Translations under genes and position numbers: made by a program
Part shown: positions 14,792 to 49,045 of the stretch, one piece after another
Layout: every line of letters starts with the position of its first letter
Numbering within the stretch: position 1 is the stretch's first letter
The notes under the pieces: generated by a model
The model's input: only the letters and a program-made list of their open reading frames with translations
Databases searched by the model: none
What the model was told of the DNA's origin: nothing
NCBI GenBank assembly: GCA_951406725.2
Contig: OX597822.1
Location: 86,614,001-86,678,000, forward strand
Direction of reading: 5' to 3'
DNA length: 64,000 nt
DNA from: Octopus vulgaris
Taxonomy: Eukaryota

Positions 14792-14838
<47 letters not shown>

Positions 14839-17692
14839 ACACTATTTGAGATGCATGGTCTAGTGGTAAAGTGTTGCACTCACAATCACACAAATGTGGT
14901 TACAAATTCTGTCTACAACACTCGCACACATATCCATATGCACGCATGTGCACACCCACACACACGGAGGTAGTGATGAGTAATCGAGACATCTGGCAAA
15001 TTGCTGGGCTTAAGAATCCGTATCAAGCTAAGTGAAATTGTAGTCACAGCCGGTACCAGTGATGCGTGAATAGCACCTGTGTCAGTGACACATAAAAGGT
15101 ACTCGGTACACTCTGTGGAATGGTTGGTGTTAAGGTCATCCAGCCATAGATACCAAGCCAAAACAGACTGGAGCCTGGCACAGCTCTCCAGTTTACCAGT
15201 TCCAGTCAAACTCATGCCAGATGCTAAATGATGATGAGTATCATATCGGAATTATATCCAATACATTTCATTCTGTTGGAACAGATCAGCGATAGTAAAT
15301 CATCCATTTGGTGATAAAAAATTAGAAAGCAAATATTTCACTGATTCTCACAATGAAATTGGTAATTCCTATTGATGACAATAGATGTGGAATGTAAATA
15401 TTGAAAATTGTGTCATTATTAAAGATGAGGTTGACAAGGATTTATATAATAATAATAATGAAATTATTGTATACAGTGCTCAGGTGCACCACAACTTGTC
15501 AGAAAGTGCATATAAAGTACATGCAGTAATGTAGAAATGTCTGGAAAGCGAACAATGTATGAGTCAGATACATGCTTGTGTGTGTATGGAGGGGAGAAAA
15601 TCAAGTGTAGTGTTGGCAAATCTCAGGAAGCATGGAAGTTTTTGAGAATCTGTTTCTATAAAAGAACTTACCAGGAATGAGAATTTCTTTGTGGCCCCAA
15701 TAAAATTTCTGTCGGTGATCACCACTAGAAAAAACAAAACAATACTGTTGAGGTGTGTGTGAACAACTGAATTGAGAACACCAATAAGAACTGGAAAATA
15801 CTTGTCTATCTCTCTCTCTAGCCTATTTGGGGGAAGGGTGTACAATTAACAGAGCTGATCCTGCTATGAGGTACAATTTGAACATAGATGTGAAGAAACT
15901 GAACTGGATTCTATAGAAAAATTTAGTACGGAATTCTACTGTTTCTATCATTTCAATTATAAGGAGAAAAATGGAATGCGATATTCATGTAATTCTCAAT
16001 GACATTAATATAGTAAGTGAAATGGTTCCAACATGTAACTGGAAGCAAGTTATGGATCTACTTCATCATCAGGAACCTACCAAATGGTGCTGGTACATAT
16101 TATTGGGCCTAGTTTCTATGGTTTAGCCAATTACCTCAACCTCAGTGATTGACTGGTTCTTATCTTATTTATGACCCTGAAAGGATGAAACACAAAAATT
16201 ACTTTGGCGGAATTTGAATTCTGAACATAAAGTCAGAAGAAATACCACTAAGCATTTTGTCTGGTGTGTCAATGATTCTGTGATTCTGCCAGCCCACCAC
16301 CTTCCTTACTCTTAATAACAAAGAAAATATTTTCCAAAGAAAAATTGAATAGAAAAAAGATAATTACGTAAAGGGGTACATCATAGCAACAACTGAAGGC
16401 TCATCTCTGGAGCAGACATAGTCAAAGTCCAGCATCCCTTGTACAGCCCGTTGCTGCATTCCATATACAATAGCTTTGGTCTGTTTGGAGAAGAGACCAT
16501 GCTGCTTTGTTTCTACATCATTGGCAATGTCATGGTGAGCAATCTTGGAATTGCTGGAATTGGCGCTTAGATCGCCTGATGATTTTCGCTTCAATATTGG
16601 TGAACGCTAAAGAGAAGGTAGAAAATAAAATACTTATTAATGAATGCAGAACTTGAGGAGGAAATTCAGGTAAGATTACACAAGAATCAACAAATACAGT
16701 CAGGCCAATGTCTTGTTCATTGATTTCAGTGAAAAATCCATGGAATCTAAAGATAAAAGTTCAATTTAAAGTTCCTGAGAATAAGAATAGTACAAATGGT
16801 TGAATAATACAATTTTTTACATACTTCAAGAAATTAAAAGTAAATAATCTTTTATGTGCTACAAATTTCTCTGATTACAATGTTACTAAGTAACTAATCA
16901 TGAACTATTGTCTGTGACCTGGGCAACCAACAAAATACTATTTAAATTTTCAACCTGAGGTATAATCAGTATTCAAGCAGTCACTGGAAAACGATATGGC
17001 ATTGTTGGCAAAAATGAATTGCAACTAGAGAGCTGTGTGTGTGTGTGTGTGCGCATATAACTATACAAACTTGAAGCAGAGTACAAATAAAAATTACACC
17101 CACACAAACACACATTATATAAAAACAAACATTCCTTGGAAGCCTATGTCACAATACAAACCTGTAAAAATAAATTTATTTTCTCTTTTATAAATAAATA
17201 ATTAATCAAGTAATGAAGAAAACAGCACTAAAAGTCCAACAACAATTGAAAGAATGACATTTGATATATTCCACTTGAAACTAATTATTCAAGGAATTGT
17301 GGTGAAAGTTTTTAATTTCAACATAAAATTGAAACATTTGTTACTCAATTTCAGTTGAAGTCATTTCAATTGAAATGACCTTAAAAAAGGCAAAAGGATC
17401 ACCACTTCCTTCTCATGGCCACCAACTTAGAGATCTTAAGTTTATTGATGCTTTCAGAATATATTTAAGATTTTTCTCATTAGTAAAACTCAATGTTTCC
17501 ATACTTCATCCTTGGAAATAATCTGTTCATGCAGAACTGATATTAATATTTTCAGTTTTGTATATGGCTGATCAACAAGTTCATTGTACAAGCATATGAT
17601 TTAGGTCCCATCCTGATACATGGCACCATTTGGCGAGAGTCTTCCATTATTGCACATTGACCAATGCCATGTGAATGAAATTTAGAGAGTAC

Positions 17693-17729
<37 letters not shown>

Positions 17730-20700
17730 TGTGAGTGTGTTAGTGTGCGCGCGCGCATGCAGGCGAACAAGCAGTTCAGAGTATGTGTCATATATGTGAA
17801 CTGAAACAGAGTTGACCAAAATTATTGAATAATGCCAATTTCTCATACTTTTGGCCAAATATCCAAGTTAAAGGGTTCATTGAAAGAAATCTGTCTATAT
17901 CACTTTTGGGAGTATAATTATGTGTTTGAGAGTAACATGATGAGTGTGAGGTGTGTTGGGGTATACAAGGACATACAAAAGTGTAAGAATTCTTTTTGGT
18001 AATATTTACTCTAAGTGTAATGGCAAAATAAATTCATACTAAATTAAACTAGTGTTATATTTTCACACTAAACAATACTGTACAAGCAGACCAATATACG
18101 AGGAAAGGTGAAATACTGACAGATTAGTTGACCAATGAAACAGAAAGCCATCAGAATGTAGTTTATTGGAATAAATAATAATTTTAAGGTTATAAGATAG
18201 AGAAATAGAACACAACATAAAGAAGAGGTAGTTTCAATATTTTGAAAATTCATTTTAGGGATTTATGTAGATATAATTAAAACCTACCTTTAACAAAATA
18301 TAACATGATCTACATGACTATACATAAAAGCAATATATATGAAACCACTACACACACACACAGACATGTAAGTACACATGCAGAAAAATAAAACACTTGC
18401 AATCAAACATTCTAAAAATGTGGATTATATTAGAGAAAAGGTAAAAAAAAAATTACTGCTGAAGAAATCCCAAAATGACCATCTCAAAGTACCAACTTCT
18501 AAGCAAGTGAAATAATAATATTCTGTATGCCATATGCAACAGTTAGTAAATATTTGACCAAAATAATTTATTAATAAGTCATTTTAATCCCTGATACTTC
18601 TACAAATATTCCCTTCTTGTGAAGCTAAGATGGAAATATATGTGAAATAAATTCTTTTAAAATAATGCTAATGTTTATAGCTTAGGAAATGATCTTAATG
18701 AGAAATGAATATAGAAATTTGAAACTCGCAGGAAAAATTATAAAATGGAGGAGCTACGTTTTGTAATTTGACAAAAATAAGAAATGATACCTGAATTTCA
18801 TTTTCACAGTATTGAACATACATTTTCCCTGCAAATTGACAATAGCCAAATGGATTTACAAGCTTTTCGACTTTACATCAGTTCATCTTTGAATAGTATT
18901 CTCATATAATTAATAATTTTCAACTTTTTTTTTTCAGCTACTCTTAAGACCACTACTACTCATCAACTGCCATTCAATTCCACCAGCATATATATATCTA
19001 CATTGCAAGTAATCAAAACAAAAAGAAAAAAAAAATCGCAACCATTTCCTTCACATCAGCCATCATTTATTCATGAGCAGTTATTTTTCAGTTCACTTGT
19101 ACTTAATTTTTACACAAATTAATATCAGAATAATGAACTCTTCTAATTCAGGTTCATTTCATAAAGCCACAGTGCTATATATAAAGACTGAGATGATCTG
19201 ATATTGTTTAACTTAAATTCTTCAGCAATAGTCAGTGAAAGAAACATTCACAACCGCTGCTACTTCAACACAAATTCATTCTGAAACAACTTAGTCTTAT
19301 GTGTATATAACCTTATATATATATATATCTATCCTATGTGTACGTACAGTCATCTAAAACGAATATAGAGAGAGTCCCACAACACCGCATTTCAACGTTT
19401 TCTAGAAAAAGGTCAGGTGGACTTTTGGGTTATTTTCATATGTATACACACACACAATACTCATAGAAGCACAAACACATACATGTGAAACACAAATATA
19501 TACATGCAGAAAGAGACTATTATGATTGGGGCATCCATAATTGTCTGGGGGTTTTTTTCTCTACTATTATTATTATTTTGAGTAAGAAGCTGTGCCCATC
19601 CTCTTCCAGCCCCTCCAACAACAATAAGAAGAGGGATGCCATTAGCATTCTGTTGAAACACCTGTAAGTCAATGGCTGCAGGAAAAGCAAGTGCGACAAA
19701 GAAATTAAAGACAATTGAGATTTTGTGGAGGGAGGAAGGATTGGTGATAGAGGTTAGTGCAGGCTCAGGACTTGGAAACACAACATGGATGATGAGAGGA
19801 GATGGAGGAGAGGCAAGTGAGTCAAACGTGCTTGAATGGAGGGGACATAAAACTATGCTGCTGTATGACGGACGGACACACACACACTACAAAGTGTTGT
19901 GTGTTTAACACAGGAACTGGATTGAAAATCCTTTCTTTCATGACTGTTGTGTAAGGGAGTTGTTTTTTATTCATAACATGAACCACCACAAACAAAACTA
20001 CTTACCTGGAAACAACAGACATAGGAACAAAAAGCAACAACATCAAGTGGCCAAGGATTGAAGGTTTTCAGACAAAATACAGAGACTTTCGAAACAAGAC
20101 AGTGCTTAATTGGAAGCTACCAGTTTCAAACCAAAAACATTAGTAGTTCAACTAAGAGACATCACACCATGCAAAGGAAAGAAAATACAAAATTGACTTA
20201 CACCAAGCTGAGCTTGACAAAATGTACTCTGTTAATAGAAACAAAAAAAAATCATTGGTGTACTTCCAAGCTGATCATCTGTTAAATATCGGCATCAGTT
20301 TTCAATAGTAAAGGGGTTGTGTGTGTATATATATATATATATATATTTGAAAAAAGAAAAAGAAGGATTTCACAGGTAATTCTAATCAGTTTAATTCATT
20401 CTTTAATTTTTTGATAATATAAATTTTAGTTCATAGATCTAGTAAGTTTTTTGTTAACTTGGGTGTGGAGAATTAAAAAAAAATAATTTTCTTATTAACT
20501 TCTTTGGAGAACTTTCTCGCATTTGTTGTCAAACAGACCTGAGGATTTGGGGTTTTGTGATCTTTGTCCTTTTTATTTTTTTTGGTTTGTTTTTCTCAGT
20601 GTTGTCACTGGGATGTTCTGGGTCTTGGAGATGGCTGTATTGATAAGGTTTATCGGATATTCTTGTCTTTTAAGGAACCATTTTAGTCTTGTAATCTCTT

Positions 20701-23700
20701 TTCCTGTAGTGTGGATTGTGTTACTATGGTACTATGGTGCAGAATTAAAATCAAAGAAGATCTTGGAGTCAAGAACACAATAGCTACAAGAATATGAAAA
20801 GAACTATGGAAAAGACCAAATAAAACCCAGAAAACAAACCCATAAGAAGCTGTCAAACTTGAGAAAAACACAAGAAATGAAGAATCTCACACAATAAACA
20901 AACTTCAGTCAAAAATTGGAGGATCCCAAACACAAAGTTATACAGAGGCCAAATACCAAACACCAGATACAGCTACCATCAAAACCCCAAGAACAATTAC
21001 CATAGACAAAATCAAAGATATATGAAGAATGAATGGAACAGCAGAAGAACCAAACCCCCTCATATTAACCAAACAAAATTCTACAACTCAGAACATTATC
21101 AACATGAAATGCCAGTGAACAGAATATTTCACCACAACAGAACCACCCCTATCCCAAATGGGAATTCTTTTTTAGGACAAGATACCTTCCATCAAATGAA
21201 AGAAAAAAAAAAAAACACCACCCTTGACAAAGAAAAACCACAGGCACCAAAAATAATCAACATATCGGCCCAGAAATTAACACAACAGGAAATCAAACTA
21301 TTAGAAAATGGACTGAAGTTCACACCCAACCCGAACTTATAAAAAGACAGGAGATTTTTGTTGTAAATTATGCCTAGGAAAATTTTTCCAGGGTGTAGAA
21401 TATGAAGAGAATTCACAAGTGTAAAACAAAAAAAACTTCAAACAACTGCTAAATAGAGAAAGACACCTGAAAGAATATATAACCTACCTATGATGATCAC
21501 TGCAGTCAAATATTGCAGAGACAAAACACAAATGCAACATCCCTACAGACCAACTGCTAGCACTAAGCAAACTTCAAAAAGACTCCTCAATAGTCATAAA
21601 AGAAGCTGACAAAGTTGGAGCAATTACCCTCATGGACAAAAACCACTACAAAGATATGACCCTAAAACAATTGAATGACAAAGGATTTTATAGCAAAATC
21701 AACAAATGCGAGGAAAAAATTCAATAATCAAAGTAGATAAACTGATGACAAAGCACCAAAATAACCTCACACTAAAGGAAATCAATTACTTAACTAACTT
21801 TGAAATGAAAATCAGCAATTTTTATGGATTACCAAAACAACATAAAAGGCAAAACTTCATATGTCGAGGTACCAAAACTGACTGATTTAAAATTACACCC
21901 AATTGTTGCTGGTCCAGCCTCAAGCACATAATGTCTAAGTAACTTATTAGACATTATTCTGAAACTCCTTTGTAAAAAAGTGCCAAGCTACATCACAGAT
22001 GATATGGAATTCCTGAATTATATACCCCAGAAAGTACACCAAAGACACAATCTAAGTCAGCTTTGATGTAACAAGCTTATATACTAACATCCCACACGAC
22101 TTAGGAATTGAATCTGTTGACTTCTGATTTACAAAACATCCAGATTCCATTTCAGAGAGATTCCTGAAAGAGTTTTATTTTGGAAGGGCTCAAATTAATA
22201 TTGGGGAAAAACCACTTCCTCTTTGATAACGAACTATATTTACAAATAAAAGGAACAGCCATGGGCACCAAAGTAGCTCGAACATATGCAACACTCGTTA
22301 TGGGATACCTAGAGGCAAAACTATATTCCCAACAGTAGGAAATGTTCAGTCACAACTTCGCCACCTATATTAATAACAACTGGAAACGTTACCTAGATGA
22401 TTGCTTCATATTCTGGGAAAGAAACCAAGAAGACGTGCAAAGATTCTAATTCATTATAAACAGGCTTCATGAAGCAAAGAAAGTTCTGCAAAGAAGTTAA
22501 CAAGAAAAAAAAATTTTTTTTTAATCCTCCACACTGAAGTTAAACAAAGAACTTGCTAGATCTATGAACTAAAATTTATATTATTAAAGAACAATAAATT
22601 AAATTGATTAGAACTACCAATGAAGTCATTCTTTTTCTTTTTTCAAATATACCCAACTGTACCAAGGATCTCGCGCATTTTCCAATATATATATATAGAC
22701 AGACAGACAGATAGATAGATAGATATCAAGGTACAAGTGAGGAGTTGTAAACCATGGAGTTATAAAAATATCCAAGATTAGACTGATTGAATGCCTAACA
22801 AAGCAGGCATATACATATATAGTATTATTAATATTATACAATTATATATTGTTAACAGGTGGTAATCTAAAGATTGTTCTCCACATTTTTTACCTGTTGG
22901 TCACATGGTATCAACCTTGTCTGCTAGATCAGTATCAGTTTTTTTGATTTAATGTTAAAGTGTAAAGAGTTACAAGTCAGGATTTCTGAAGAGGTTTCCT
23001 GCAATCATCTCCTGATGTCATCTCTAACAGAAATTTATGCCTGAATATATTTGACTGTAGAGATGTTCAGTTACAGCAGTTAATTGGGTTTAAATATCTT
23101 AACCAAATTTAAACATTTAGTTAAGACATTCAAATGGAGAAACTGATACTGAAAGACTACAAACTTAACAATCATAACCCTCTTCTTATCTCCAACAGAT
23201 GACAAAGTTCAGTCACTAGAACATCGATATTTCTTTCTCTTTTAATCCAGCTGTATCATAACACTTTAAAAGCTTTGTAATTTAGTAGCCCTTTGAAATG
23301 AGGTGTCAGATAATTATTAGTTCAATGGCTGTTTGATTTCAATATCCAGTCATAATTTCACATTTTTAAATCGATTAATCAACAGACCAAGGTTACTGAT
23401 CGTGACGTGATTAAATTTTCATTTTAGAGATGCAATGTTTTAAACTGCATTTTTATATTCTTTACAAAGAGAGCCCCCACACACACACACACAGAACAGG
23501 CTTTATAAACAGGATGATCCTGATTAAAATACAAGGATGTGGCTCAATACAACATGAAAGAGATCAAACATTGATAGCAACAACTGGACCACAGCATCAC
23601 AAGAGGGAAACCTGTATCGGAAAGCAATCCACTTTGATATTACATCTCCTGACATTACATCTGGATACTAATCGTTGTTGATATTGGTAGATGAGAGCCA

Positions 23701-26700
23701 CTGAAACTCATCTATTCAATCTTGTTACAAGTACCTCAAGTTACTGAGTAAAATACAGATAGTTGTTTACCAATGGGAAGATAGCATCAGAAATCAAATG
23801 TATAGTTGTTTCACTGAATTTGTAACTGTTAGGAAACTTTAAAATTTATCACATGGACATTAACATTTTTAGTAAAATAAAATAATTGGAGACATTGCCA
23901 ATTATCATGAGCTTTCATTATTCATGAAGTATTTTAACATTTCATAAAAACACATCCTATGAAACAAGTTGCAAGAACAGTTCATTTATCTGGTAAATTA
24001 ATCATGACTTGAATGAAAATATCCTTGATTCAAACTATTTCTCAGGAACACAAACTAGTTTTTTTGTTTTTTCAGTTTGTATTCAAAGATTTCCATATAA
24101 ATATTTTTGCAAGATTCTAATAAAGCAAACAAATCCATTTACAAATTACTTAGTGTATTTGAAAGTTGTTTTTAAAGCTATTTAAAAAAATATAAATCTA
24201 TTTAATAATTTCTATGAATAGTCTTATGTCACAGCTTAAAAAATTTTGGTAAACAAAACAAAAAATGAACTTTTGATACAAAAGCAACAAGTTTGTGAGA
24301 AATTGTTTTATAGTTTCTTTAGAAAAGAGCAGCACATTTGAAATAGAGAAATTATTCAACAATTTAAGTAAATCCAATTCTAATTTCCCAAGAAAAGAAA
24401 TTTGAAATAATATAGGATTAAAAATAAAAAGCTTAAGCCCAAAGAAAACACACACACAAAACTTGTATTAATATAGTTCAAAAATTTATAACGTGATTAA
24501 AATGTACGGTAATTATGTAACTGCATGGTTAATAAAACAAACAATTCATGGGAAAGCAAAGCTAAACAACCGAATAGAGCATGAATGTACATATCATCAT
24601 CGTTTAATGTCCGCTTTCCATGCTAGCATGGGTTGGATGATTTAACTGAGGATTGGCGAACCAGATAGGTGCACCGGGCTCCAATATGATCTGGCAGAGT
24701 TTCTACAGCTGGATGCCCTTCCTAACACCAACCACTCCGAGAGTGTAGTGGGTGCTTTTACGTGACTACTTGTACTCTGAATTCATCGCTGTACTCATTG
24801 CCAACCCTCACCTTACTGACTGCATCCCTGTACATGGCTTGTACAGTTCTCATCAACCACTTGTCTATCACTAGTTTCCACATTGACCACTAGATAAGGG
24901 ATTGGGGGACCCTGTCAAAGGATTCCTCCATGTCAACAAAAGCCAAGTACAGAGGTTTATCTTTGGCTAGGTATTTCTCCTGCAGCAGCCTTACCAGATA
25001 TATAGCATCAGTGGTGCTTCTCCCTGGCACAAAACCAAACTGCATCTCATCTCAGCTAACTCTCCCTAATTAGTTGGGCTATGACCCTCTCCATGACTTT
25101 CATCACCTGATCCAACAATTTGATACCTCAAATATATATATACTACACACATGAACACATTCATACATGCATATATAATGACCATTTACTTGGATTCCCA
25201 TGAAACATCAAAGTAAATTGAATGTTTGTTGTACCCAACTAAAATGTGTGTGTGTATACTCTCATATGTAACTGGAAAAAATATCATTTATATTTGATTT
25301 TCCTGATAAAAAATAAAGTGAAAATTAAATTTATAACTTGCAACTAATAGATTTAAAAAAATACTAATTTGTTGTTAAAATCTAGCAAAAGCATAAAACA
25401 GACGAAATACTCTAACAAACTTAAAATCATTTCTTGTTTGTTAAATACTGAAAAAAGGAAGATGGACGTTAATAACATCTGAATTTTGTTTAATCCCAGA
25501 ATATAAGAAGATAGAAAGGAAGTGAAGCTGAGGGGCTGAAAAGAAACTTCTGACCCAATTTCATTACTTTGCCTAGCTGACAAACAGCTCCCACTCCTGT
25601 AGTAACAGAAAGTGTATCAGTCACAAAAATCATTTGTCTAATAAGGAACTGTCAGATGTTGAGCTTCACAGACAGGATGACAAGGGACAATGACTTCTGG
25701 TGGTTTACTGCGCTTGAGAAAGGCACATCAAGTTAAGTGAAATCATGGTGATCCTTGCATCTCTCTTCAACTGAGCAATCCTACTCATGCAGGTCATGAG
25801 TGCTGATGTTGTGCAAAAGCACCTAGTTGGCGTTAGGAAGGGCTTCCAGCCATAATGACCATGCAAAAACAGACATGGAGCCTGGGCAGCTCTTGTCGAA
25901 CCGTCCAACACATGCCAGAATGGGAAAGAGACATTAATCATTGATGATGATCATCATCATCTGTCATTGAACCCATGACAGCATGGGAAAGAGACATTAA
26001 TGATGATGATGATTTATGTGAATGTGGTTATTGCATTGTCTCAGTAATCAACAGCCTGCACTTCCATAAGATTGGCCAAAGCAACCCTTGACAAAAAGTG
26101 TACAAGAAAAGGATAAAGAAGCAGAGATATATGAAGCATTCAAAATCCCAAGGTATGTTATCCAATATTTTTAGCATACAATTAGAATAATGCGCTTTTC
26201 TCCATTACTTTCTCTATATTTCTATTAACCAAGCATAATATAAATCTGAATCTGTGATAGAGATTTTTAAAAAACATTGGGTCACATTGTTCTGAAATAC
26301 TGTAATAAAAGTGCAAAACTAATAAAATCTTATGCACAGTTAAGCTGTGAGCATGCACATCGATTTGTCAATGAGTGCAAATACTAAATGTGTGCATAAG
26401 AGGTTAGTGGCCTAAAATAATTTAGTAATTAATAAGTATATTAAGTTTCGAGTTTATATTTACTTAAACATTCAATGTACACAGACTTTTGTCAGGAATA
26501 AAAAAAAATGTTCACAATATATAATTTGTATGCATGCTAACAACAAAAATTTAGCAAAAAACATTGCTCTTGTTTAAACAAAAGCAAAACAAAAAAATCA
26601 AAAAACACAAACAAAACCTAGGGGTGGGAATTGTTAATTAGTATACAATTTAAAATCTATTTATTGGAGATTGATTGAACAATTAACACACAAAATGATT

Positions 26701-29700
26701 ATCAAGCAAAACAGAAAAAACACAAGAAAAATTAGAAATAATCAAACATGTAAGCTAAATGTGCAAGCAGTTGTTAGAATCTCTAAAATAATTTTGTATA
26801 ATAATGAAAAATGGGGAAATGCATGTTGCTTGAGATTTCTATTAGTCTAGAAGTGCCATTGGAAAGTATAATTAAAGTTCTTAAGCTGAATGCCGAACTG
26901 GATTCTGATTCCCAGTGGCAACTTCCATTTACTTTGCTGGGAAATATAGGAATGGTATAATCTCTATTTCTTCCTCTTCTGAAGTCAATAACACCCACAT
27001 TGATTAACAAATATCTATGTATTGCTAAGTTACAGACCCATCTTTTCTCAAAAGATGTTAATGCAAAGACACACAATAGGCTTCAACACAGTTTCCATCC
27101 ACCAATTTCATTCACAAACCATTGGTCAATTAATGGCTATAGTAGAAGAATGTCAAGATGCTGTGTAGCAGGATTGAACTGAAGGCCTCTTGGTTGGGAA
27201 ACCAAGTTCTTAACCACACCCAGGCAATAACAAAAACTTAATTTCTTGCTAAATACAAAGTAAAGGTTTGTGTGAAAGGTATTTATAATCAACCCATAAG
27301 AATTTACATTCAAAATCAAGTGGAATTAAAATTAATTCTATAATTTAGCCAGCAAGTTAATTTCCTTGACTGTCTCCCTCCACCCTTAGTGGGGAAAATA
27401 AAATAATTGATTTCTTTAATTTTAAGTTTTCTATTCTCTTGCTCCAAAGAAAATAATAAGGGAATGAAGGAATAAAACGGTTAATATCAATCTTCAGTTC
27501 ATTCAGGTTACACATGCATCATGATGCTGGTAAAACAAAGCATTAAAAGGTTGGTGGAATAAAAGAGAACCAAGCCCCAAATCTAGTCAAAGATTATTAG
27601 CTACAAAAAAAAATGCTAACTGAAGATTAATTCATACTATAATCTTAGCACAATTATAAAACTCATGAATACACAAATCTTAATAATAATCAACATCCTA
27701 GTTTATTACCTGCTATTACTGAGAGAGATTATACTAATCTTTGCAATTGAACAGATAAGTCATATCCTCCTGGATAGTACACCAGTTTGTTGGAGTTTGA
27801 GCTCACAGTACAAAATAATGCAACATTCCTCAACTATCGTGTTCCTCCTGCTCTTTGATTTCAACAGGGAATTGTATCATCTTTATATTTAGTTAGATGA
27901 ACCAGATTTGTTTTGAACCGTGAATGTAGCACAAAGCTGGTTACAAGATACAAAGTGTAGATCCTTCATTTCATAGGCTGTAATTACTTCATTATGTGAC
28001 TAGTTGTAACTCTTTTGTAAAATTCATTCATTAAAAAATATAAGGAATTACAATAAAAACAATTACATATTATTCCTTGATCCTCAGCTGTTAGGTATTC
28101 AATGGCAGGTAAATTCAAAGTAACAAATAATTTACATTAAATGTCAGAGAAATCATTTATTACTGTAACTTCAAATGACATACCTAGATTACTGGAGAGC
28201 CATAACTTATCACTAGCAACTACACTACATTGTTTGCTGAAAGACCTTTAGCCAGTCATATGTTGAGACATCTATTGTTGAAGACTTTGGTGCCATCGGG
28301 CACTAAAATATGAAGCATTTAACCAATTGTAAAATGCTTTAATAGCGTTCCACCAGTTCTTGTTAACAGATTTCATAATGAATTAGTATCAACATTTTAA
28401 GGAAAAGATGGTCAAAACATATTGAAAATACAAACACACTTTTTTTTCCTCTATGTGATCAGTCAAGCTGCTAGAAAGAGTAGCCATACCTACATAAAAT
28501 TACACTATTATCTATGTCACACTGGCTAATGTGGTCTTGGGTTCCAGGCAGATAAGACAAAGATGGAATAGTCATCATCAGAATGCTTTTGATCATAGGT
28601 TGGTTCAATCAGAGCTGACTTGGGGTTAGACAACTTGTGAGGAGGTTAAGCAATTCATTTTGCTACCACTAACAGTTTCAGATTCAGGAATGGTCAAACC
28701 TCACACTTCAGCAAGTTTCTTCTCTCATACACTTGGCTTGGTTAATGCCTCATGTAGCCATAGAATTTTGTACAGAGAAACAGTGTAGAAGTCTTGCATA
28801 AGTTTTTTGCTAATACATGTCAGTTAACATAAGCTAAAAATTGGTTGCCTCTTAAAGGATCTTTGTCTGTCAAGTTACTTGGTGACCTTCCCAGTGCTGG
28901 TGACATGTAAAAAGCACACAGTCCACTCTGTAAAGTAGTTGGCATTAGGAAGGGCATTCCAGCTGTAAAAACTATGCCAAAACAAACAGCAGTGTTTGGC
29001 GCAGTCCTCAGGCTTGCCAGCTCCTGTTAAACCATCCAACCCATACCAGCATGGAAGACATGTTGAATGATGATGATGAGACACCCAGGTACTACAAAAG
29101 CTCCATTTAAAATGGTAATCAGAGGTAGAGAACAAAAATAGGCATCTGGCTAGCCAGGTCTACTAACTAACTTCCATTCCACTTTGAAGCAGTTTTATTT
29201 AATATTCAAAGCTAATATGTTTAGAATAGTCAGAACATTTACCAATTCACACACGCGTGCGCACGTGTGTGCACACAATACTTCAGCTCAAGTGTCTCTG
29301 TATAATCAATATTCCATGGAGAAGAGAAACCAGGAATACTTATCACAATAACATCAATACAACTAACACAATCATGAATATAGAAGTGCAGAGTAGCATA
29401 AACATAGGAGAGACAGAAGCTAATAGAAACAAAGAGAATTGCAATGAAATCATGCTCGCTACTGTGTCCAATAGAGAAAGAAAGGGGAGGGGGAGAAGGC
29501 AGAGTTGCAAGGATTACCTGCATATTCTGAAAGGAAAAACAAAAATACAATTAATTGAAAAATGAAAACAAACAGAAAATACAAAAATAGAAGAGAAATA
29601 TAGAATAATTTTGGACTTTGTATTTGTTTGATGTGGGGTTGTATAATGGAAGTGAAATATTACAGGCTGGAATAAAACCTTTTAAAACAAATTTGAAAGT

Positions 29701-32700
29701 TAATAGGTGGAACTGGTTCAGAAAGCAATTTGTGAACATACATTAGTCTATAACAATACTTACAAACATAAAAAAATGTATATTAAAAGTATACACGGCT
29801 TATATAGCTGTTCTCAATCACCCACAATCTAATTGCAGTAGCAGTTTGTTTGTTTAATAAGTCTAAAATGTTTTGGAGCTGTGTTGTTTTAAAAATGAAA
29901 TAATTTACCACAGTTATGGAGGAGTTATCAGTGCATGTAAAATGGTTTTTGGGTATCATTAAACAAGTTAATTTAAAATTCCAGTATTTTGACTTTATAA
30001 TTAATGTCACAAATGAAGAACAATGTTACAAAGTTAATTTTGATTGTCTGACAATAATCCATTTCAGTTTATTACATGATTTATAAGAAAAGAACAGTCA
30101 TCTTTCTTGTAACAATGAAAAACAACTTTGGGTGAATGGATTTTGTTCATTCAAGATAGATGCCAAATACAGTCCAGTTAACAATAAAGACAATTACACA
30201 CACACACAGGGCCAGAGAAAGATCAAAGGCAGACAGAAAGTCAGAGAGGTATGGAGACAGACAAGCAGACAGTAAAGGAAGTAGGTAAGTAAACAGAGAG
30301 GTAACTAAACAAACAGCAAGAAAGGAGACCTTTCCTATGATGGTAATGTGTGCTTTTGAAGGATTTTTGTTTGTTATTTCTAGTCCATCGCTCAACCATA
30401 TACAGGAAATAAATGTCTGTATTTTCAATAACAGACAGTCATAAAGGAGGGTAGACAAGGAGACAGGCGTGAGATAGACAGATTAAGTAGGTAGGAAGGC
30501 AGACAAACAGGTAGAGAGGTTTGTAGACAAATAGATAGAGAGGTTTATAGACAGAGAGAAGGTACAGAAGCAGACAGTGAGGTACATACATAGACAAAGA
30601 GAAGACAGAGCTATAGATAGAGACAGGTGGTATATACTATGAACAGCTTCAAATTGGCTGAACTTAAAAAATAACAGGCTCCTGTATTTTATATCTATTT
30701 CTTTACTACCCACAAAGGGCTAAACACAGAAGGGACAAACAAGGACAGACAAAGGAATTAAGTCAATTACATCAACCCCAGTGCGTAACTGGTACTTAAT
30801 TTATTAACCCCGAAAGGATGAAAGACAAAGTCGACCTCGGCGGAATTTGAACTCAGAACGTAATGGCAGACGAAATACGACTACGCATTTCGCCCAGCGT
30901 GCTAACGTTTCTGCCAGCTCGTCCAACCCATGCCTGTATTTTATATCAATAATTAAAAAGACATCATCTGTTTGGTTTGACAGTGATAAAAAAAAAACAT
31001 TTAAAGCTGATAAGGAGAAAGACACAAGACAGAAATAGGAGCTATGTCTTAAATTGCAGTTTGTTCTATTATAATAAACACAACATAAAAACATTGTGAT
31101 ATTTAAATCTTCAATACATTACTCCCAGTACATTACTAAATTTAACAGATGAAGCCATTTTTCCATGGAAGGTTTTAACTCATCATTGTAAGTTACATAC
31201 TTCTTCAGCTGAGTGATCCTAATCTTGCAGGCTCATGGGTGCTGGTGCCATGTAAAAGTGCCCATACCAGTGTCACATAAAAAAACACCCAGTCCACTCT
31301 GTAATGTGGTTGGCATTAGGAAGGACATCTAGCCATAGAAACCATGCCAAGGCAAACATGCAGCCAGGCCAGATCCTGTCAAACCGTCCAACCCATGCCA
31401 GCATGAAAAACGGACATATAATGATGATACACTGCACATCTATTAAGTAATGGCTATGCAGAATCAATTCTAATTCTCCATACAGTTCTTTCTTACAATT
31501 CTAGATGGGCATATTTTAAATTACTTATAACAAAATTTTTCTTAACTGGGACTCGCATTGGTGCAAGTAACATATATAAAGAACCCAGTACAATCTGTTC
31601 TAGCATCGTTTCTACATCTTGATGCCCTTCCAACTACTTCACAGACAATGGTGCCTGGTATGGCTTCTGGGCTTAGCAGCTCCTGTCAAACCATTCAATC
31701 TATGCCAACATGGAAAGCAGATATTAGATGATGATGAGGAGGATTTCAGTACTGATTTCCCCCATAAATGAATGTTCTGTTGTTATTCTTGAAGTTGCTT
31801 TTATAACATTTTTATTTTACAATTTTTTATAAGCTTGCTATGCTTGAGAAAACACATCAAGCTAAGTGAAATTGTCATTGTCCTTGCAAACAGGTGTGTC
31901 CCCTGCATCCCTCTTCAGCTGAGTGATCCTATCTTGTGGGTATTGGTGCCACATAAAATTCACCTGTATGTGCTGCATAAAAGCACCCAGGCAGCTCCTG
32001 TCAGATTCTCCAACCCATGTCAGCATGGAAAACTGACATTAAATGATGATATTTCACAGATCTCTATTACACATAATCTATTTACAGTCCTCTATCACAT
32101 GGCATGCATTTTACCATTCTGTATAATATAGTACCTATTTTACACTTGTCTAGTATATGGTACCCTTTTGACAGTTCTTAATCACGTGGTACCTTTTTTT
32201 ATAGGCACCTCAGAAAAGAATCCATAATAATCTACTAGCGCAGTTCAGGTCTCTGACATGGGCTCATGGATGCTGTCCGTCCTCCTCTGATGAAACTATA
32301 CAGAAAGAGAAATAAAATAGTTAGTAACCATTAAAAACAAAGATAAACTCACTGTCCCTCCCGGAAGTAAAAAGTTAGCAGTAGTTTGCACAGGTTGAGG
32401 AGTGGTTGGAATGTCTTTCTTGCCCAGTGCCATGCTAACAATGGCAGTCATATGAGTTTCAGGACCATAAACATGGATCGGAACCCCAAGTGTGGAACCT
32501 TGAAAAAAAATTGAAAACAAAAGAATTGTAAGAGAAATAATACAAATTTGAAGAAATAAGTCAATTTTGTTTTTGTACTTTTTACAAATACAAGAATAAA
32601 ATGAAAAGATAAAAGAATTTACAAAATGTATTTATGTATACAATGGTAGATTTAGTGAAGTTATTGACTCATGAATATAAACCATTGGTGAAAGTGGAGG

Positions 32701-35700
32701 AGCCAGTGTTGAGTACACATGATACGGTACAACTGTTGTAAATAAGCATCTCATACAAGCAAACATCCCTCGTTTCCAATCTTCCTTGAAATGATTATGA
32801 CAATGATACTACACATGACGGGCTTCTTTCAGTTTCCCCTCACAAGGCATTGGTAGGCTTAGGCTATCATAGAAGTCACTTGCCCAAGGTGCCATTCAGT
32901 AGGACTGAACTTGAAGCTACGTGGTTGATGGAGAACGGAACCTCAATCATACAGCCATAAACACATATCAAACATAAAGCTAGTACAGAGTTATAACTTA
33001 CCAAGTTCTTTCATTATACGTAACCCTTCCTGGTAGTTAGGTCCACCACGTCGAACATAGATGGAGACATTGTGTTCTATCAATCTCTGCTGATATTCTC
33101 TTAGAGCTCGTACAATTCCCTACAAAGTCAAGACAATAAAGTTCAGTTTAATATGTTGTTAAAATGGAGAAAGTTAGTCACATGAGGTGCGAAAGTTGGT
33201 TGCAAAATTAATACATTATAAGTAGCATTCAAGATTAAGAAATGGAATTTAGACTAAAAATATCATAAGTGAACAAATTAACGATTATACTAAATCACTG
33301 ATTTGGTGGAATTTAAGGATTAAATGAACCATTTCTTGGTCATTTTACCCCATTTTTAATGCAAATTCTTTCCAGAATCACAAGAATTTTCAAAGCTGAT
33401 GCTTATCTTTACAGCATTAAGAAAGAGAAATCTTAGTTTGGCTTCAATAGAAATCTATTACAGAGAGAAAGAATTTAACTTTGCTCTACAAATAATGAAT
33501 CAGTTTCACAACAGCAATGAACCAATCTGTTTCACTGCACCTATTTAGAGAGACATGGATTTGGCTGCTTAGAGCCAAGTGCCTTGGCCACAAATAACAT
33601 TGGTGTTAAGATATAAACTTCCATTGAAATACAGATAAAACATCTTACAAAATATTTCTGCTACTCACATCAAAAGGTTGGTTATTGCTTATGACAAAAT
33701 GAAAAAAATAGATTGAACAACTGAGGGTCATCAGGATTGTTTTTATTACGTATAATCTCTCCCATTCTCTCACCTCTTCACTCACACAAAATCATGTTGA
33801 AACCATCACTGAAAATCAACTGAAGATTAGAAAATGTTCAGTCTTTAATAGCTTTTACCCAAATACGGCCTGGATTCAAATCCCAACAGGGAAACATTTT
33901 TTGATTTGCACATCTCAATTTTATGCATAGGAAAAAATGAATAGCAGCAGTACAACTACAGCAAAGTAATTTTAAATTTTATACTACATTGCTGAAGAAT
34001 TGACTTTTGAAACTTTAATTTTGAATCAATAAATTATATTTTATACAATTATCAAATGAAATTAGAAATGTTGAGATACAAACCTTGAATGTTGTTGCAA
34101 CATTAGTGAAATTAGCAATACCACCACCAATAATAAGAATTTTGCCTGCAAGAAAATAATTGTAAATAGTAAATAAGGAGAAAATTATGATAAACACAAG
34201 TTTCTATTTGTTGTTCTGTTCATTTCACCATTGTGATAGATTGAAATTTTGCATCGGATGTTCTAACAGCAACTGGTTGCTTAACCACAATGAATGGTTA
34301 GGAAACACTTTATATGTTACAGAGAGGTAGACATATCTACACAGATGTGTCCACCCTACTTGACTGTGTTTTCCAATGACTTTCAGAAAAATAGATACTT
34401 TTAATGAAATTTTCGACAAATATGCTTCACGTAGTGTAGATTCTGATAAATATCGGAATTTGTTGGGAAAACTTTTTCCCAAGGGGTGAGGGGAGGAGTT
34501 TCAGAAAATTCACACAACCCGGCTGTTAGTACTTTTTTGTCCTCCTGCACTGATACAGACTAAATAGACGTAACTATTTAAATATTCAAAAATATGTGCT
34601 ACTTGCTAAATAAATCTTAAATGCTGGTGTCAAGAGTAGAATTACATTCTGATACAATATAAGCTTATGACATTTCCTTTAACTAGTACTGATTTTATTT
34701 ATTAAGAACTAATAAATATCAATTGATCAAGAAAAATTAATTAACCATTAAACCTGGAATTCTTCTGTAAAGTTTATGGTATTCCTTAAAGTAGAAACAG
34801 TTTTGGTTCTAAAAACTCAGATTTAACTAGAAGGAGGCTGTGTTCACAGTTTACCAGAAACTTTAGAGTTGGCACTTAACCGATTTCCCAATATAGCGAT
34901 AATTGGCAAACTCCACATTAAAATCCAGTTTTTTGGGCGTTGTGTCAAGTATTTCCAATTGTTTCAGCAATGATCTCCACCACAGCTTATTTGCAACACA
35001 GGCATGGATTACTTACAATTGATGGAATGTTGAAAAGTTTAAAAGATTCTGATGCAGCTCAAAAGGAATTCGATCAAACACATTCAGTGGTTGACAGAAG
35101 TGCTGGTAAGGTATTAGATCAGTGCTTTTCAACCTTTTTGCTGGAGCGAAACCCCAAGGAAACATTCCACTGGCTCGGGGAACCCCTGTGCAATAATTTA
35201 ATAATATTATGCACACATATCTGCACAGGGGAATTAAAAATTACTGCCGATTTTAGCAGTTTTGTAACTTCTTGCGGAACCCCTGGACTGTACTGGCGGA
35301 ACCCTGGTTGAAAACCACTGTATTAGATTACCAATTCCATGTTCAGGTACCAGTTATCTTCCCCTCGTTCAGGGCTAATATGTAGTTTAACAAGCTTCTC
35401 AATTGCTGAGCTGAGCTGTTATTACTACTGTACAACATTTGACATTATTATGGTTTAATTTCCAAAATTATTCAAGCATGAAGGAACTGAAGAAACAAAT
35501 TATATCCTGACACTGCGCCTGACTTTTCATTTATAAAATTATTGAAATTTATTAACTTTGAAATTTTCTTTGAATACATGCGATTACAAGGAAATTATCA
35601 TTTGAACTTACCCTCTTTATGCTTGGTCTCTGTCATGAGACTAAGAATAGTTTTGGCATATTCATAGGTCTGCATTTCACTGGGGGCTCCTGAATATTCT

Positions 35701-38700
35701 CCATAGTTAGCCAGCTCTGATGCCCCTCCCAGATCACAAATAGTATCTCTGAAAGAAGGGAAGCATCAAGAAAATATTTAAAAGCTGTGTAGCATAAATA
35801 TGTCCAACATAGAATTGGAATTCAGAAGGAGTTCAACAATTCTTGGTTGTAGCAAATACCACATTTCTTACCAAACTAGTGTAATATTTTATAAAAATAT
35901 CAGAGTCACAATATATTTCATCACAATTAATTTTTAATAATTGATTATCAGCATTTTTTAATAAGGGATCAAACCATAACTTTTATTGATGAAACTATTT
36001 CTGTTATTTCTAATCTGCATTTTTTACTATTGCTTCAAGAGGCATTCAGTATTTCATTCTAATGGAAAATTACAACTCCTGACTCAAGATTGCAGTTTAT
36101 TTTTAAATAAATCTCTATAAAATGATAAATATAAGACTATAACAATAATAAAACTCCCTTAAAAAGGTGCTAATGTCTCTTTTCAGACTAAGCTAAGGAT
36201 TTCTGATAAAAAAGTAAAAAGTTCAAATTTTGACAAATTGACTTAGCAAGCAAGAACAATTTTGTTTGAAAATATTAAACTGTATCACATAAAACAACAA
36301 ATAACTTGAAATATTTTTATTTGAGCCAAATTAGTTAAAGAATCAGTTTGGAGTGAAACCAAATATCATAAAATAAGAAGTTCCTGTATGAGACTTTTCG
36401 ATATTATCTTCCATTATTCCAAATAATTAATGTAAGGTATTGGTGGAACAACATAAGAGAAACAGCAACAACTGGCATTAAGAAATGACAAAAAATCTGG
36501 CTCACAGGATGCTTATCTCATAATATTAAGTTATCTAATAGAAATCTCTGAACTTTGAATGTCCTCAAAATTGTCTCCCACATTTAACACAACTATATCA
36601 CTTCAAATTGTAACAATTGGACAAACTGGAATTAAAACCAAAAATAAATAAAAACAATTAGTTAGGGTAAATTAGTTAGGGGAAACTCTGTTAGGGTAAA
36701 GTAGAGTTGATGAGTTGAAACCAAGCTAGAGACTAATATATGTTCAACAATATTTCTTTGGAGAAATACATTGAAATTATATTTTAACAAAAGGAAAATG
36801 AAAATCTGTTTGAGAACATAAAACGGCTTACGCATAGATAACAGAAGCACCTCCTCCTGCAACCATTGTCCAAATTCGCCCTACTTTATTGAGTATTGTT
36901 AGTTTAAGAGATGCTCCACTCTTGGCATCAAGATCAGCAATGTAAGCTTCCTAAAGAGAAGAAATAAGAAAATATCAGACTAAATTTTAAATGGAGGATG
37001 GCAGTGTAAAAACAGTAAATATTTGCAAGATAATGTCATGAAATGGGAGGTTTTCGTATTAGGAGTTGAAGAGGAGTTAATGACAATAAGTTAATACTAC
37101 ATAATCACAAAATTTTATTTTAAAGATAGGGTTAGAAATTTTAAAAAGCTGGTTTAATAATTTTAAAATTCAGATTTATTGTATGAAAAATAGGAGTCAT
37201 AAAATTTAATTTAATGAGAATAGCCTTATTACATTAACTGAACATTAAACAGTAGAAAATGACAAAGTGCATGAGGTACATTACTCCTTGATTATGAATC
37301 GTGATAACTACAACAAATAGTTTGCTGGGCCATTGAGCTAAACCCTATCCAACATACCACAATTCACTTAGTTGTGCACAATAGGTACAACAACATAAAC
37401 CTGTTCACAAAAGTAAATACTTGCTCCTGACATTTACACAAAGTTTCAGGGGGATTTGGGGAATAAGAGAAATCAGGTTGTCTTCTAATTTTGCTTTCCT
37501 CAAATTTAGCAATGGTTCTGTGGTTAATAAGTTGACCTCACAACTATATAATTCTACATTTGGTTCCATTCAGCAGAAACTTGAGTTAATATCTTCTACT
37601 TTAGTTTTGGTTTGAAAGGAGCCTTGTGGCTGAAACTTTATTGATGGAAACTGTGCAAAAGCCTGTCCTGTGTAAACGCATGCATTTGTGCTTTTGAGTG
37701 AATTAGTGTAAATTCCTTGTGATTTTACTCTCTCGGGAAATAGTCATCAGATAAAATGAGTACCAGACTAAAAACTGGGGTCAATATAGTTGAATAAAAC
37801 CAGTGAAATAAAAGAATTGAAATAGAAAAAAAAATATGGAAATTGAAACTGGGCACCATGTAGAGCTCCCTAGGAACTTCAGAGTTTTCCAAACTTAAAA
37901 AACTTACCTCTGGCAAAGCATCCCGGCCAAAAGGTGGTGGAAATTCCATTACATCACCCCACTTTGCTTTACACAAAAATTCTGCACACTGATCAATCTT
38001 GGCAGCTAAGTCAAGGATGAAAACTTTGCCATTGGTCACAACTAAACAAAATATAAAAAAATTTATTTGATGAAGACATTTTCAGAATATGAACCATTTG
38101 TATTTCTTATGGTGAGTGTTATACTATAAATTTCTTTAATCTATACTAATATTAACGTAACTTTAACACAAGGCAAGATATTGGTCTAGCTGATGAAATC
38201 TGTTGTACAATATTCCAAGAAAAGAGTTTGGCAAAGGTGCTTTGTGTTACCTGTCTGCTTTAACCCCTAAACTGAAGAGGTGATGTCAAAACCTGAGGGG
38301 AATTCTGTTGCATCAGCATCCAGATAACCTTTGGTACGCTGATGATATTATGTTGCAGAGACTGATTGACAAAATTAATCAAATCTCCAGTGAGTCTCAG
38401 AGATCAGCACCAAAAACTGTAATATTTTGACCACATTATCAGGGCTTAGAACATTTGTGTTCACATCCCCAAGGGTTGAGTAGACAGGGAACAAATTCAT
38501 GGGTAACAAAGATAAAGAGGAAATGATGACATCAAAGAGTTAAACAGAAGGTCCCTGGAGGAAAATACAGTTGCAGCACAAGACTGTATGGTTAAGAGTG
38601 ATGACAGTGTCTGAGCGCCACCAATTCTCAGCTATCAATAGTATTTATTTTAATGAACCACCAGAAAAATGAAGAGCAAAATCAGAGACTTTGTATTTGA

Positions 38701-41700
38701 ATCAAAAAGATTGCATATCAGCCAATAAGGAAGCCTCTATATGGTCACTTGACTTGCTAGAAATAATAGTCAAATTCCTCTCAAATCACACCCTACCTTA
38801 TTCAAAAGGGACTTGTAGAGCAATGTCATCCTGGATAAATAAAAAGAAAAACCTAGAATGTTTATATGTGAGTTACCTTTCATTATAAGTCTGATTGATC
38901 AAGATCAACCGGGGGCTAAAGAACAACAGAAACTAACTGGTCTCTAGTTTATTTGCTAATTCTCTGATTTCACTTTTAAGAATTAACAGAAAAAAAACTT
39001 ACCCAAAGGGTTGATTTCTAGATAAGTGAAATGCAAATCCTGATACTGGTTATACAGAGCAGAAATGAAACGAGACAGGATCCTGAAAGAACACAAATTT
39101 AAGAAAAGTTTATCAACAAATAAATATAACAATAGTAACACCAACAGTAATTCACTCAAGATGAGATTTACTAAAAAGAAAGTAATTATATTGAAGCAAA
39201 CTAATAAATGGCTCTTGTTTCTCTAAGAGTTAATTAAAATATTTCATTATAATCCCAACTAATTTAGAGACTAACAAGAACTTCATTCAAATAAATATCA
39301 CTCGCAATTATTTGTGCCAACTGCTTTAATCTTTCTCTCAGCAGTTCCTTGACCACCATTAAACTGTGCACGCTAAAATACTGGGAATGTAGATCTCTCT
39401 CTTCCACTCTCTCATATGAGGTTTGATCAATAAGTTTCTGGACTGTTGCCATAGTAATGAAGTTAAAGCATGCAGAGTGAATCCACTTGGCAAAGATTGA
39501 CCTTCAACTCTGCTGTGCAGGAGTACTAAGTTTTAACACTCTAGCTCACTTCTGCTGTTTACAGCAGTGCTTAGAAGGAAGGTGTGTAGCGTGTGATCGT
39601 CGCATTGACCATGACAGAGAAAGTTGTCATGGCGATAACTGCTCAGAGGCCTACACAAAGTTGCAGAAAATGTATGAAGAGGGGTGTATGAGATTCACAC
39701 AAGTGTACAAATGGTTCAAACATTTCCAAGATGGCCAAAAAACTGTTGACATTGACAAACATTCTGGGAGACCCACAACCAGCAGAACTGGAGGGAAAAA
39801 CATTGCAGATGTGTGTGCAGCTGTGAGAGTAAATTGTCAAATCACCATCCGTGAGTTATTAGAGGATGTGCAGATTAGTTACAGTTCTGTTCAGTCCATA
39901 ATCACTGAAGATTTGTGTATATATTCTAGCTCACTTCTGCTGTTTATAGCAGTGCTTGGAAGGAAGGTGTGTAGCATGTGTTTGTCGTGTTGACCAGAAC
40001 ATAGAAAGTGGTTATGGTGATACTGGCTCAGAGGCTTACGTAAAGTTGCAAAAAGCATATGAAGAGGGGTGTATGAAATGCACACAAGTGTACAAGTGGT
40101 TCAAACTTTTCCAAGATGGCCAAAAAAATGTCAATATTGACAAACATTCTGGGAGACCCGCAACCAGCAGAACTGAGAAAAACATTGCAGATGTGCATGC
40201 ATCTGTGAGAGTAAATAGTCAATTCACCATCCGTGAGTTATCAGAGGATGTGCAGATTAGTTACAGTTCTGTTCAGTCCATAATCACTGAAGATTTGTGT
40301 ATGAGATGCATGTCTGCCAAGTTTGTACCAAAACTGCTTTCAGCTGACCAAAAAGACACTCGGATTTCAGTTGCATAAGATCTCCTTGATTGTGTTGAGA
40401 ACAATGAAAACATTTTGAAAACTTTATGTAAGCCTCTGAGCAGGTATCGCCAAGCTTTTGGCAAAATTGGATGCAGATTCTCTGCTCAACTTCCTCTGTT
40501 ATGTATAATGCGATGATCACACGCTACACACCTTCCTTCCAAGCACTGCTGTAAACAGCAGAAGTGAGCTACAACATTAAAACTTAGTGCACATGCACAG
40601 CAGAGTTCACGGTCAATCTGTGCCAAGCGGCTTCACTCAGCATGCTTTACACACACACACATACACGATAAAAATAGCTACATAAATTCTAAAACAATTT
40701 ATGATTTGCAGACTTCCAGTATCCTCCATTAGCTCTGTTAGTAACCCTTAAATTCTGGACATTAGTGGTATGGTTATAATATGTGAGTCAGTCTATCTAA
40801 ATAATATTATCATTTTTATTTTCTTACAAAGAAAAACATCCTTCCATACTTACTCTTTGACATCTGCGGAAACACAAACAAGCAGTGATGCAATCATGTC
40901 TGCCTTGATAGGATCACCAGGGGGAATCTCCAGTCGTTTTGCCTAATTATATAATAAAATGTTTCCTGGAGTTTATCAAAACATTTTGAAATAAAAACAA
41001 GTGTCATTAATGGTATATATAAATTTCGGGTCTTTTCTTTTTTTAAAGCAATTTCTTGTAAATCCCACAATATTGAAGAAAGGAGGGTGTGGTTTTAAGA
41101 AACAAAGAACAACCATTGCAACTCAGCATTCATTGCTAACTCTCTCAATACACACCATTTCATAAGGAACCTTACCAAAGTCTTTCTCTATATCAACAGA
41201 CTCCCAAAACAATTTCTTCATTTTGTCTCTGTACTTCCACTGTTGTTGTTCTTCCAGACATAAAATCCAAACTGCATTTCATTGATATTACTTTCTGTTT
41301 TATCCTTTTCCATTAACTTCATTTTTATGCTCTAATACATTAATTACTCTAAACGAGCCATAGTCCAGGGGACTGCCATCCAATCTGAGGAGAGGAATAT
41401 CATCATCTTTCACCAACACCCTACAAATCCTTGTCCTTTTTTTCACATTTCAACTACCATTATAATTCTCCCACAACTCTTGCAATTCCACCCTTCATTA
41501 CTCTTACCACTTCTTCAACTTCCTTCTCCTCTCCTACTCATACAACTGGATTGGCCTCTATGTTACCATTTCATTCATTCTCCCCATTCAACATCTTGTC
41601 CAGATAACCCTTTAACTTTCTCTTACTTCCATCAGGACCCACAATTTGCCGCACTTTCTCCTTCAAACACTTCATCTCTGTCAAACTACAAATCTTTCTT

Positions 41701-42800: not shown

Positions 42801-42831
<31 letters not shown>

Positions 42832-48800: not shown

Positions 48801-49045
48801 AATCAAGCATTATCTCACAGCTTTGAGAATTCAATGATGTGATTATTTTAGAATGACATTATAGAGTAGGTGTGAGAGGCTGGATATAGCCAGTTTGGCC
48901 ATAACACTCACGGAGTGGTTGACGTTAGGAAGGGCATCTAGCCGTAGAAACACTGCCAAATCTGACTGGGCCTGATAAAGCCTTCCGGCTTCACAGACCC
49001 CAGTTAAACCGTCCAACCCATGCTAGCATGGAAAACAGACGCTAA

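What the first reader, a model, noticed from the sequence alone, without database searches (positions are those of the whole stretch)
29462..29600. 9-nt microexon AAT ATG CAG carrying an in-frame ATG for the C-terminal half
Very long U-rich tract, strong acceptor (tttcctttcag) and donor (CAG|gtaatc), phase 0-0. Included in the fusion it adds NMQ. In a transcript from an internal promoter, or downstream of the stop exon, it supplies the start [12 protein letters not shown].. for an ACL-B-like subunit; exon 16368-16606 has no in-frame ATG until inside the conserved domain (YGM). A second acceptor 56 nt after this donor (ccctttctttctctattggacacag|TAG, or cagtag|CGA GCA TGA) again leads straight to a stop, echoing the mini-intron design at 32296-32352.
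Basis: partly seen in the sequence, partly recalled or inferred. Interest (0 to 1): 0.7.

Follow-up and report, generated by a model that had tools for sequence, protein, structure and literature searches.

The report
Optional three-residue exon in mollusc ACLY
Nine bases inside a long intron of a mollusc's ATP-citrate lyase gene form a tiny in-frame exon (Asn-Met-Gln) that close relatives either splice in or skip; it likely adjusts the enzyme's flexible linker next to a predicted phosphorylation switch, and it likely does not start a separate half-enzyme.

Summary
The 9-nt exon is real. It lies at 29526-29518 (minus strand), phase 0-0, in a fused ATP-citrate lyase (ACLY) gene of a mollusc, likely an octopus. 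It ranks 1st of 2052 exon-like candidates in 59.8 kb of intron; a second, 27-nt microexon (20228-20202) ranks 2nd. Public isoforms show all four include/skip combinations. NMQ stands in 18 of 29 clade proteins spanning the site, including relatives 87% identical, but in 0 of 4 proteins of the window's own assembly type. Snails and abalone have an optional 3-residue insert at the same spot (LAK, GPQ, GRQ; IVQ in an unnamed mollusc), none with Met. The split-enzyme reading is not supported: 0 of 346 fetched proteins begin at this Met, the second acceptor has no branch adenosine at -43..-15, and an equally good 56-nt acceptor-then-stop follows an ordinary exon. The slot sits just before the motif aligned to mammalian T447/S455. 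No read-level test succeeded. The scan noted both microexons before on this same window. Verdict: ordinary cassette microexon with a mildly interesting mollusc-wide pattern.

The parts
29518..29526 (-). 9-nt cassette microexon, Asn-Met-Gln, phase 0-0
   Evidence: isoforms P0123, P0127, P0132, P0133 and relatives
29527..29615 (-). Acceptor AG with T-rich tract and 87-nt AG-free zone; no TGC in the 93 nt upstream
29511..29517 (-). Donor GTAATCC, score 7.5 (real donors 2.4-12.1)
29462..29517 (-).
29450..29461 (-). TAG, or CGA GCA TGA, after the second and third AG; overlaps a GCATG 63 nt past the donor
20202..20228 (-). Second cassette microexon, 27 nt, STFCQAQLG, phase 0-0
32353..32498 (-). Upstream constitutive exon, ends ...[10 protein letters not shown]
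16368..16606 (-). Downstream constitutive exon: rest of the linker (R-S-P...R-K-S-S) and start of the CoA-binding half
32245..32352 (-).
1..62377 (-). Fused ATP-citrate lyase gene, 25 exons in the window covering residues 51-923 of P0123

Best explanation
The nine bases at 29526-29518 are an in-frame exon with intact splice sites in a fused ATP-citrate lyase gene; close relatives include or skip its Asn-Met-Gln, so it is likely an optional cassette here too, and it likely tunes the flexible linker beside a predicted phosphorylation switch rather than starting a new protein. Shown: the exon, its frame, the four isoform combinations with the 27-nt exon in sister assemblies, and its place between the citrate-binding domain (ends at 417) and the CoA-binding domain (starts at 484). 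Inferred: use in this very genome, regulation by tissue or state, and effect. Inclusion replaces G-G-T by N-M-Q directly before R-S-P-x-x-x-R-x-x-S, whose serines align with T447 and S455 of a mammalian ACLY, and adds three residues of spacing. The likely effect is on kinase or partner access to the linker, not on catalysis. That it is a real cassette exon of the fused enzyme: about 0.9. That it has a selected regulatory effect of this kind: about 0.55.
For: Rank 1 of 2052 candidates. NMQ in 4 of 12 members of the window's own cluster; pairs P0127/P0130 and P0132/P0128 differ by these three residues only. NMQ in 14 of 17 proteins of relatives about 87% identical, on contigs of 1.7-4.8 kb (sources checked as Logan assemblies for all but P0005). 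There NMQ is 3/3 and the 27-nt exon 7/9 identical, while the constitutive linker after them is 11-13 of 37 identical. Near-identical pairs that differ by 3 residues at this spot: Haliotis rufescens X1/X2 (LAK), Biomphalaria glabrata (GPQ, two pairs), unnamed P0276/P0279 (GRQ), unnamed P0023/P0295 (IVQ, plus one substitution). P455 and R459 invariant and S462 nearly invariant in 32 aligned ACLYs; S454 and S462 align with T447 and S455. S455 is an AKT/PKA site that primes GSK3 sites (PMC11260853, passage). Linker 424-489 has the lowest pLDDT (22-25 over 431-480) and no secondary structure in the model.
Against: 0 of 4 proteins of the window's own assembly type carry NMQ. No read-level junction was obtained (one search was uninformative). 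Many Logan rows are near-duplicates, so 14 of 17 stands for about two lineages. The gastropod inserts are seen as proteins only; exon status and common descent are inferred, and Littorina, Babylonia, Liolophura and the two named bivalves show no isoform pair in what was fetched. In mammals, deleting the alternative linker exon changed nothing measurable in vitro, in cells or in mice (PMC11260853, abstract and discussion). The model is poor overall (mean pLDDT 63), so low linker confidence is weak evidence. No phosphorylation data exist here for any mollusc.
Confidence: 0.55

Rival explanations
1. A real cassette exon with no measurable effect on the protein: a tolerated spacer in a disordered linker, its letters kept by splicing signals (the final Gln codon is the donor consensus CAG).
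For: The mammalian exon-14 isoforms are indistinguishable, and enzyme without the disordered region has a similar rate (PMC11260853, discussion). The slot's sequence differs among lineages (NMQ, LAK, GPQ, GRQ, IVQ) and always ends in Gln or Lys, as a donor consensus would favour.
Against: Both microexons are far better conserved than the neighbouring linker (3/3 and 7/9 against 11-13 of 37), and the 3-residue length recurs in several mollusc lineages.
Confidence: 0.3
2. The second acceptor (29461) or the one at 32295 is used in some transcripts as a poison splice that lowers ACLY through nonsense-mediated decay.
For: Both have pyrimidine tracts in the top 1% of intronic AGs by a plain count (25 and 8 of 3217); the 32295 site also scores 9.5 under the gene-trained model and has adenosines in the branch window.
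Against: The 29461 site has no A at -43..-15 and scores low under the gene-trained model. The shortest real intron of the gene is 122 nt. A 56-nt look-alike with immediate stop follows constitutive donor 13798. 65% of all intronic AGs meet a stop within 17 codons and 17.5% within 3.
Confidence: 0.07
3. The exon is used in sister species but silent in the window's own species.
For: 0 of 4 proteins of the window's assembly type include NMQ.
Against: Splice signals are intact and top-ranked; an assembly 99.8% identical at the protein level includes it in 2 of 4 proteins.
Confidence: 0.05
4. One reading: the exon supplies the start codon of a separate 651-residue C-terminal (ACLY-B-like) subunit, from an internal promoter or after an upstream stop, so that the fused enzyme can be made again as two halves.
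For: The ATG is in frame, has A at -3, and lies about 32 residues before the place where natural second subunits begin (Met 442; archaeal subunit residue 4 matches query 477), so such a product could fold. NMQ with its Met is kept in relatives 87% identical.
Against: 0 of 346 fetched proteins start at this Met; all 12 members of the window's cluster are 1062-1102 aa. No N-terminal half ending in the predicted tails among the fetched proteins (one clade protein, P0156, ends by running on past the 27-nt exon). Other molluscs' inserts lack Met. No internal first exon or promoter was identified. Reinitiation after a 450-codon frame is inefficient in animals (general knowledge; PMC6614817, start of abstract only, says it works best when the stop lies near the 5' start).
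Confidence: 0.03

Closest known systems
Human and mouse ACLY exon 14 skipping (PMC11260853)
   Same: Same enzyme; a short in-frame cassette in the disordered linker near phosphorylation sites; both isoforms full length.
   Different: Other position: the mammalian 10-residue cassette lies at the far end of the linker, after S455 (P0091 and P0095 lack it), the mollusc slot lies before T447. Here there are two cassettes of 9 and 27 nt. ESRP1 control is shown for mammals only.
Neural microexons controlled by SRRM3/4 or the eMIC domain of Srrm234 (PMC8797185; 10.1101/2024.09.17.613571)
   Same: 3-27 nt, frame-preserving, conserved peptide, long pyrimidine tract and AG-free zone.
   Different: No UGC within 93 nt upstream and a strong rather than weak acceptor; long flanking introns; tissue pattern unknown.
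Two-subunit ATP-citrate lyase of archaea and bacteria (PDB 6hxi, 6znw, 6hxj)
   Same: The intron lies in the linker where these enzymes are split (subunits match query 4-417 and 477-1086).
   Different: No sign that this gene yields two chains; every clade protein that reaches the second half is fused.

Membership tests
Fused animal ATP-citrate lyase | ATP-grasp, citrate-binding, CoA-binding, CoA-ligase and citrate-synthase domains in one chain | tested here: met
   Pfam on P0127; full-length match to human ACLY chains; exon chain in window
Cassette microexon | 3-27 nt between AG and GT, frame-preserving | tested here: met
Cassette microexon | Both inclusion and skipping products exist | tested here: met
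   At protein level in sister assemblies and relatives; not in the 4 proteins of the window's own assembly type
Cassette microexon | Junction reads in this species | tested here: inconclusive
   repeats swamped the lay and even the constitutive exon end had no cover
eMIC/SRRM4-dependent neural microexon | UGC between branch point and AG (in 74-79% of mammalian targets, so not obligatory) | tested here: not met
   no TGC in 93 nt upstream; frequencies from 10.1101/2024.09.17.613571 passages
eMIC/SRRM4-dependent neural microexon | Weak 3' splice site with long AG-free zone | tested here: inconclusive
   AG-free zone 87 nt, but acceptor score 12.35 is near the top of the real ones (3.3-14.4); criteria from PMC8797185 section 10
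eMIC/SRRM4-dependent neural microexon | Neural-specific inclusion that depends on Srrm234 | not testable with these tools
   no tissue-labelled raw reads were listed
Two-subunit ATP-citrate lyase | Separate A and B polypeptides with their own start and stop | tested here: not met
   0 of 346 fetched proteins start at the Met; no predicted A-half tail found; absence from databases is not proof
Orthologue of mammalian ACLY exon 14 | Same position in the linker | tested here: not met

The most novel reading that the evidence does not exclude
Cephalopods kept the Met in this exon because an unseen internal first exon splices onto it in some tissue, giving a free 651-residue C-terminal half and so re-splitting the fused animal ACLY at its ancestral seam. 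A tamer novel reading, an ancient mollusc-wide 9-nt exon kept in length but not in sequence to set the spacing before the AKT/PKA-GSK3-type motif, has odds near 0.35 and would deserve about 0.45.
Probability: 0.03. Interest if true: 0.75.

Novelty: new member of a known kind. Interest (0 to 1): 0.27.

Why it matters
Modest. The function of alternative splicing in the ACLY linker is open even in mammals (PMC11260853). Molluscs vary the same linker at a different place, right beside the conserved phosphorylation motif, with a three-residue slot that recurs in cephalopod-like, abalone and snail lineages. That gives a natural comparative test of whether linker splicing tunes signalling to acetyl-CoA supply. 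The exon itself already stands in public isoform sets, so it is no discovery of a hidden gene part. The split-enzyme idea would matter far more but has no support.

Tried and rejected
No whole genome is held, so no genome-wide or cross-species DNA comparison was possible. Run search: no RNA holder on record among 24 listed; all are contigs. Laying 4 of those runs on 29300-32420 gave only interspersed-repeat matches and zero cover on the microexon and on the constitutive exon end, so it says nothing either way; joints to the downstream exon were not tested at read level. Search for an N-terminal half among proteins under 605 aa: 126 hits, 120 listed; one from this clade (P0156, NMQ and 27-nt exon included, then an unrelated tail); none with the FHQRR tail. 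GCATG after both microexons (+63, +30) suggested RBFOX control, but 6 of the 22 other donors have one within 150 nt too: not counted. eMIC-type control: hallmark UGC absent. The careful tree did not finish; the quick tree was used. Literature searches that found no paper on this exon: microexon+cephalopod (2 papers), microexons+octopus+neural+conserved, ACLY+microexon (7 papers, 5 listed), microexon/mollusc/Octopus bimaculoides/Srrm234 (15 of 529 listed), octopus+ATP citrate lyase+isoform; judged from listings except where noted. 10.64898/2026.09.05.749416 has 0 mentions of ACLY in its main text; its supplements, which I could not see, may list this exon.

Full report
Setting. The window holds most of an intron-rich ATP-citrate lyase gene on the minus strand: 25 exons for residues 51-923 of the public isoform P0123, with 2 differences. 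The two differences match P0125, so the window is of the assembly type that gave P0003, P0125, P0126 and P0129. A quick tree of 25 proteins puts it among molluscs, in a clade (support 100) apart from gastropods, bivalves and the chiton, with two unnamed lineages about 87% identical. That this is an octopus and the relatives squid or cuttlefish is my inference; no call names them.

AATATGCAG lies at 29526-29518 between a T-rich acceptor and GTAATC, phase 0-0. Scored with the gene's own splice sites, it ranks 1 of 2052 exon-like candidates in 59.8 kb of intron; rank 2 is a 27-nt exon at 20228-20202 (STFCQAQLG) that the finding does not mention. The downstream exon has its first in-frame ATG at codon 50.

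It is spliced in relatives. The window's cluster has 12 members, 1062-1102 aa, in four forms: neither exon (5), NMQ only (2), 27-nt only (3), both (2). None of the four proteins of the window's own type has NMQ; an assembly 99.8% identical has it in 2 of 4, and a third (98.5%) in 2 of 4. Among 17 proteins of the 87% relatives, 14 have NMQ and 3 skip it; many are near-duplicates. In these relatives NMQ is unchanged and the 27-nt exon is 7/9 identical, while the next 37 linker residues are 11-13 identical. Read-level proof was not obtained.

The slot recurs in other molluscs without the Met. Pairs that differ by three residues at this spot are Haliotis rufescens X1/X2 (LAK), Biomphalaria glabrata (GPQ), an unnamed pair (GRQ, also in Aplysia and Elysia chlorotica) and an unnamed mollusc pair (IVQ). 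Biomphalaria shows the same two-by-two pattern with a second, 5-residue insert (LLNCW); Physella has IFFPG. Their genomes could not be read, so exon status and common descent are inferred.

The start-codon reading. A product from Met 442 would be 651 aa and would hold the whole second half; natural second subunits begin near residue 477, and the ATG has A at -3. So it is possible in principle. But none of 346 fetched proteins starts there, all 18 NMQ proteins carry it internally, the Met is absent from other molluscs' inserts, and no predicted first-half product was found. Reinitiation behind a 450-codon frame is unlikely (general knowledge). I put it at 0.03.

The stop acceptors. The 56-nt span after the donor ends in CAG and TAG as stated. 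Its tract looks poor under the gene-trained model (243 of 3217 intronic AGs do as well) and good under a plain pyrimidine count (25 of 3217). Against use: no A at -43..-15, where the 24 real acceptors scored have 4-12; the shortest real intron is 122 nt; and constitutive donor 13798, in the second half of the gene, has a 56-nt look-alike with 19 of 21 pyrimidines and an immediate TGA. The echo of the 32296-32352 motif is therefore not special to the linker. The 32295 site is the stronger of the two and stays untested here.

How it most likely works. The exon is skipped or included in full-length mRNA and changes three residues in the disordered linker (424-489 lowest in confidence in a mediocre model; disordered 429-493 in mammals, PMC11260853). 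It sits directly before R-S-P-x-x-x-R-x-x-S, whose P and R are invariant and whose last S is nearly invariant in 32 ACLYs, and which aligns with T447, P448, R452 and S455 of a mammalian enzyme. S455 is an AKT/PKA site that primes GSK3 sites (PMC11260853; the paper prints T477, the alignment points to T447). Tuning of access to this motif is my inferred mechanism (0.55); a neutral spacer is the main rival (0.3), given that the mammalian cassette has no measurable effect. Neural control is open: the UGC hallmark is absent and the acceptor is strong.

What is known. Mammalian ACLY exon 14 is the closest case, at another position in the same linker. The exon stands in public isoform sets of sister assemblies. 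Five searches found no paper on it. Papers seen: PMC11260853, abstract, sections 4 and 10, passages; PMC8797185, passages and section 10; 10.1101/2024.09.17.613571, passages; 10.64898/2026.09.05.749416, passages; PMC6614817, listing only.

Verdict. Observation confirmed, interpretation partly supported. New member of a known kind; interest 0.27.

Noticed in passing
window 20202-20228 (-): Second microexon, 27 nt, [18 protein letters not shown] in relatives, where all 11 proteins that carry it also carry NMQ. TGCATG about 30 nt past its donor.
   Followed up: partly
window 13741-13797 (-): 56-nt look-alike intron after a constitutive exon, 19 of 21 pyrimidines, then TGA at once; served as control.
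   Followed up: partly
window 59312-60997 (+): Two neighbouring frames with weak reverse-transcriptase matches, below Pfam's cut-off: likely a decayed retroelement in the 16.6-kb intron.
   Followed up: no
window 39484-39990 (+): Frame with a Mos1-type transposase HTH match above the cut-off: likely a mariner-type transposon remnant in an intron.
   Followed up: no
window about 30690-30921 and 31300-31420: Very high-copy interspersed repeats, with depths far above the rest in all four runs laid.
   Followed up: no
proteins P0126 and P0129 (gene end lies outside the window): Window-type proteins with other C-termini, and P0129 with a 17-residue longer N-terminus; may be annotation variants.
   Followed up: no
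proteins P0153, P0291, P0116, P0286: Snails and a sea slug have a second optional 5-residue insert after the 3-residue one (LLNCW, IFFPG, IPLIR), echoing the two-cassette layout here.
   Followed up: partly
window 2694-2699 (-): Third-ranked exon-like candidate, 6 nt, strong acceptor and weak donor; not checked against isoforms.
   Followed up: no
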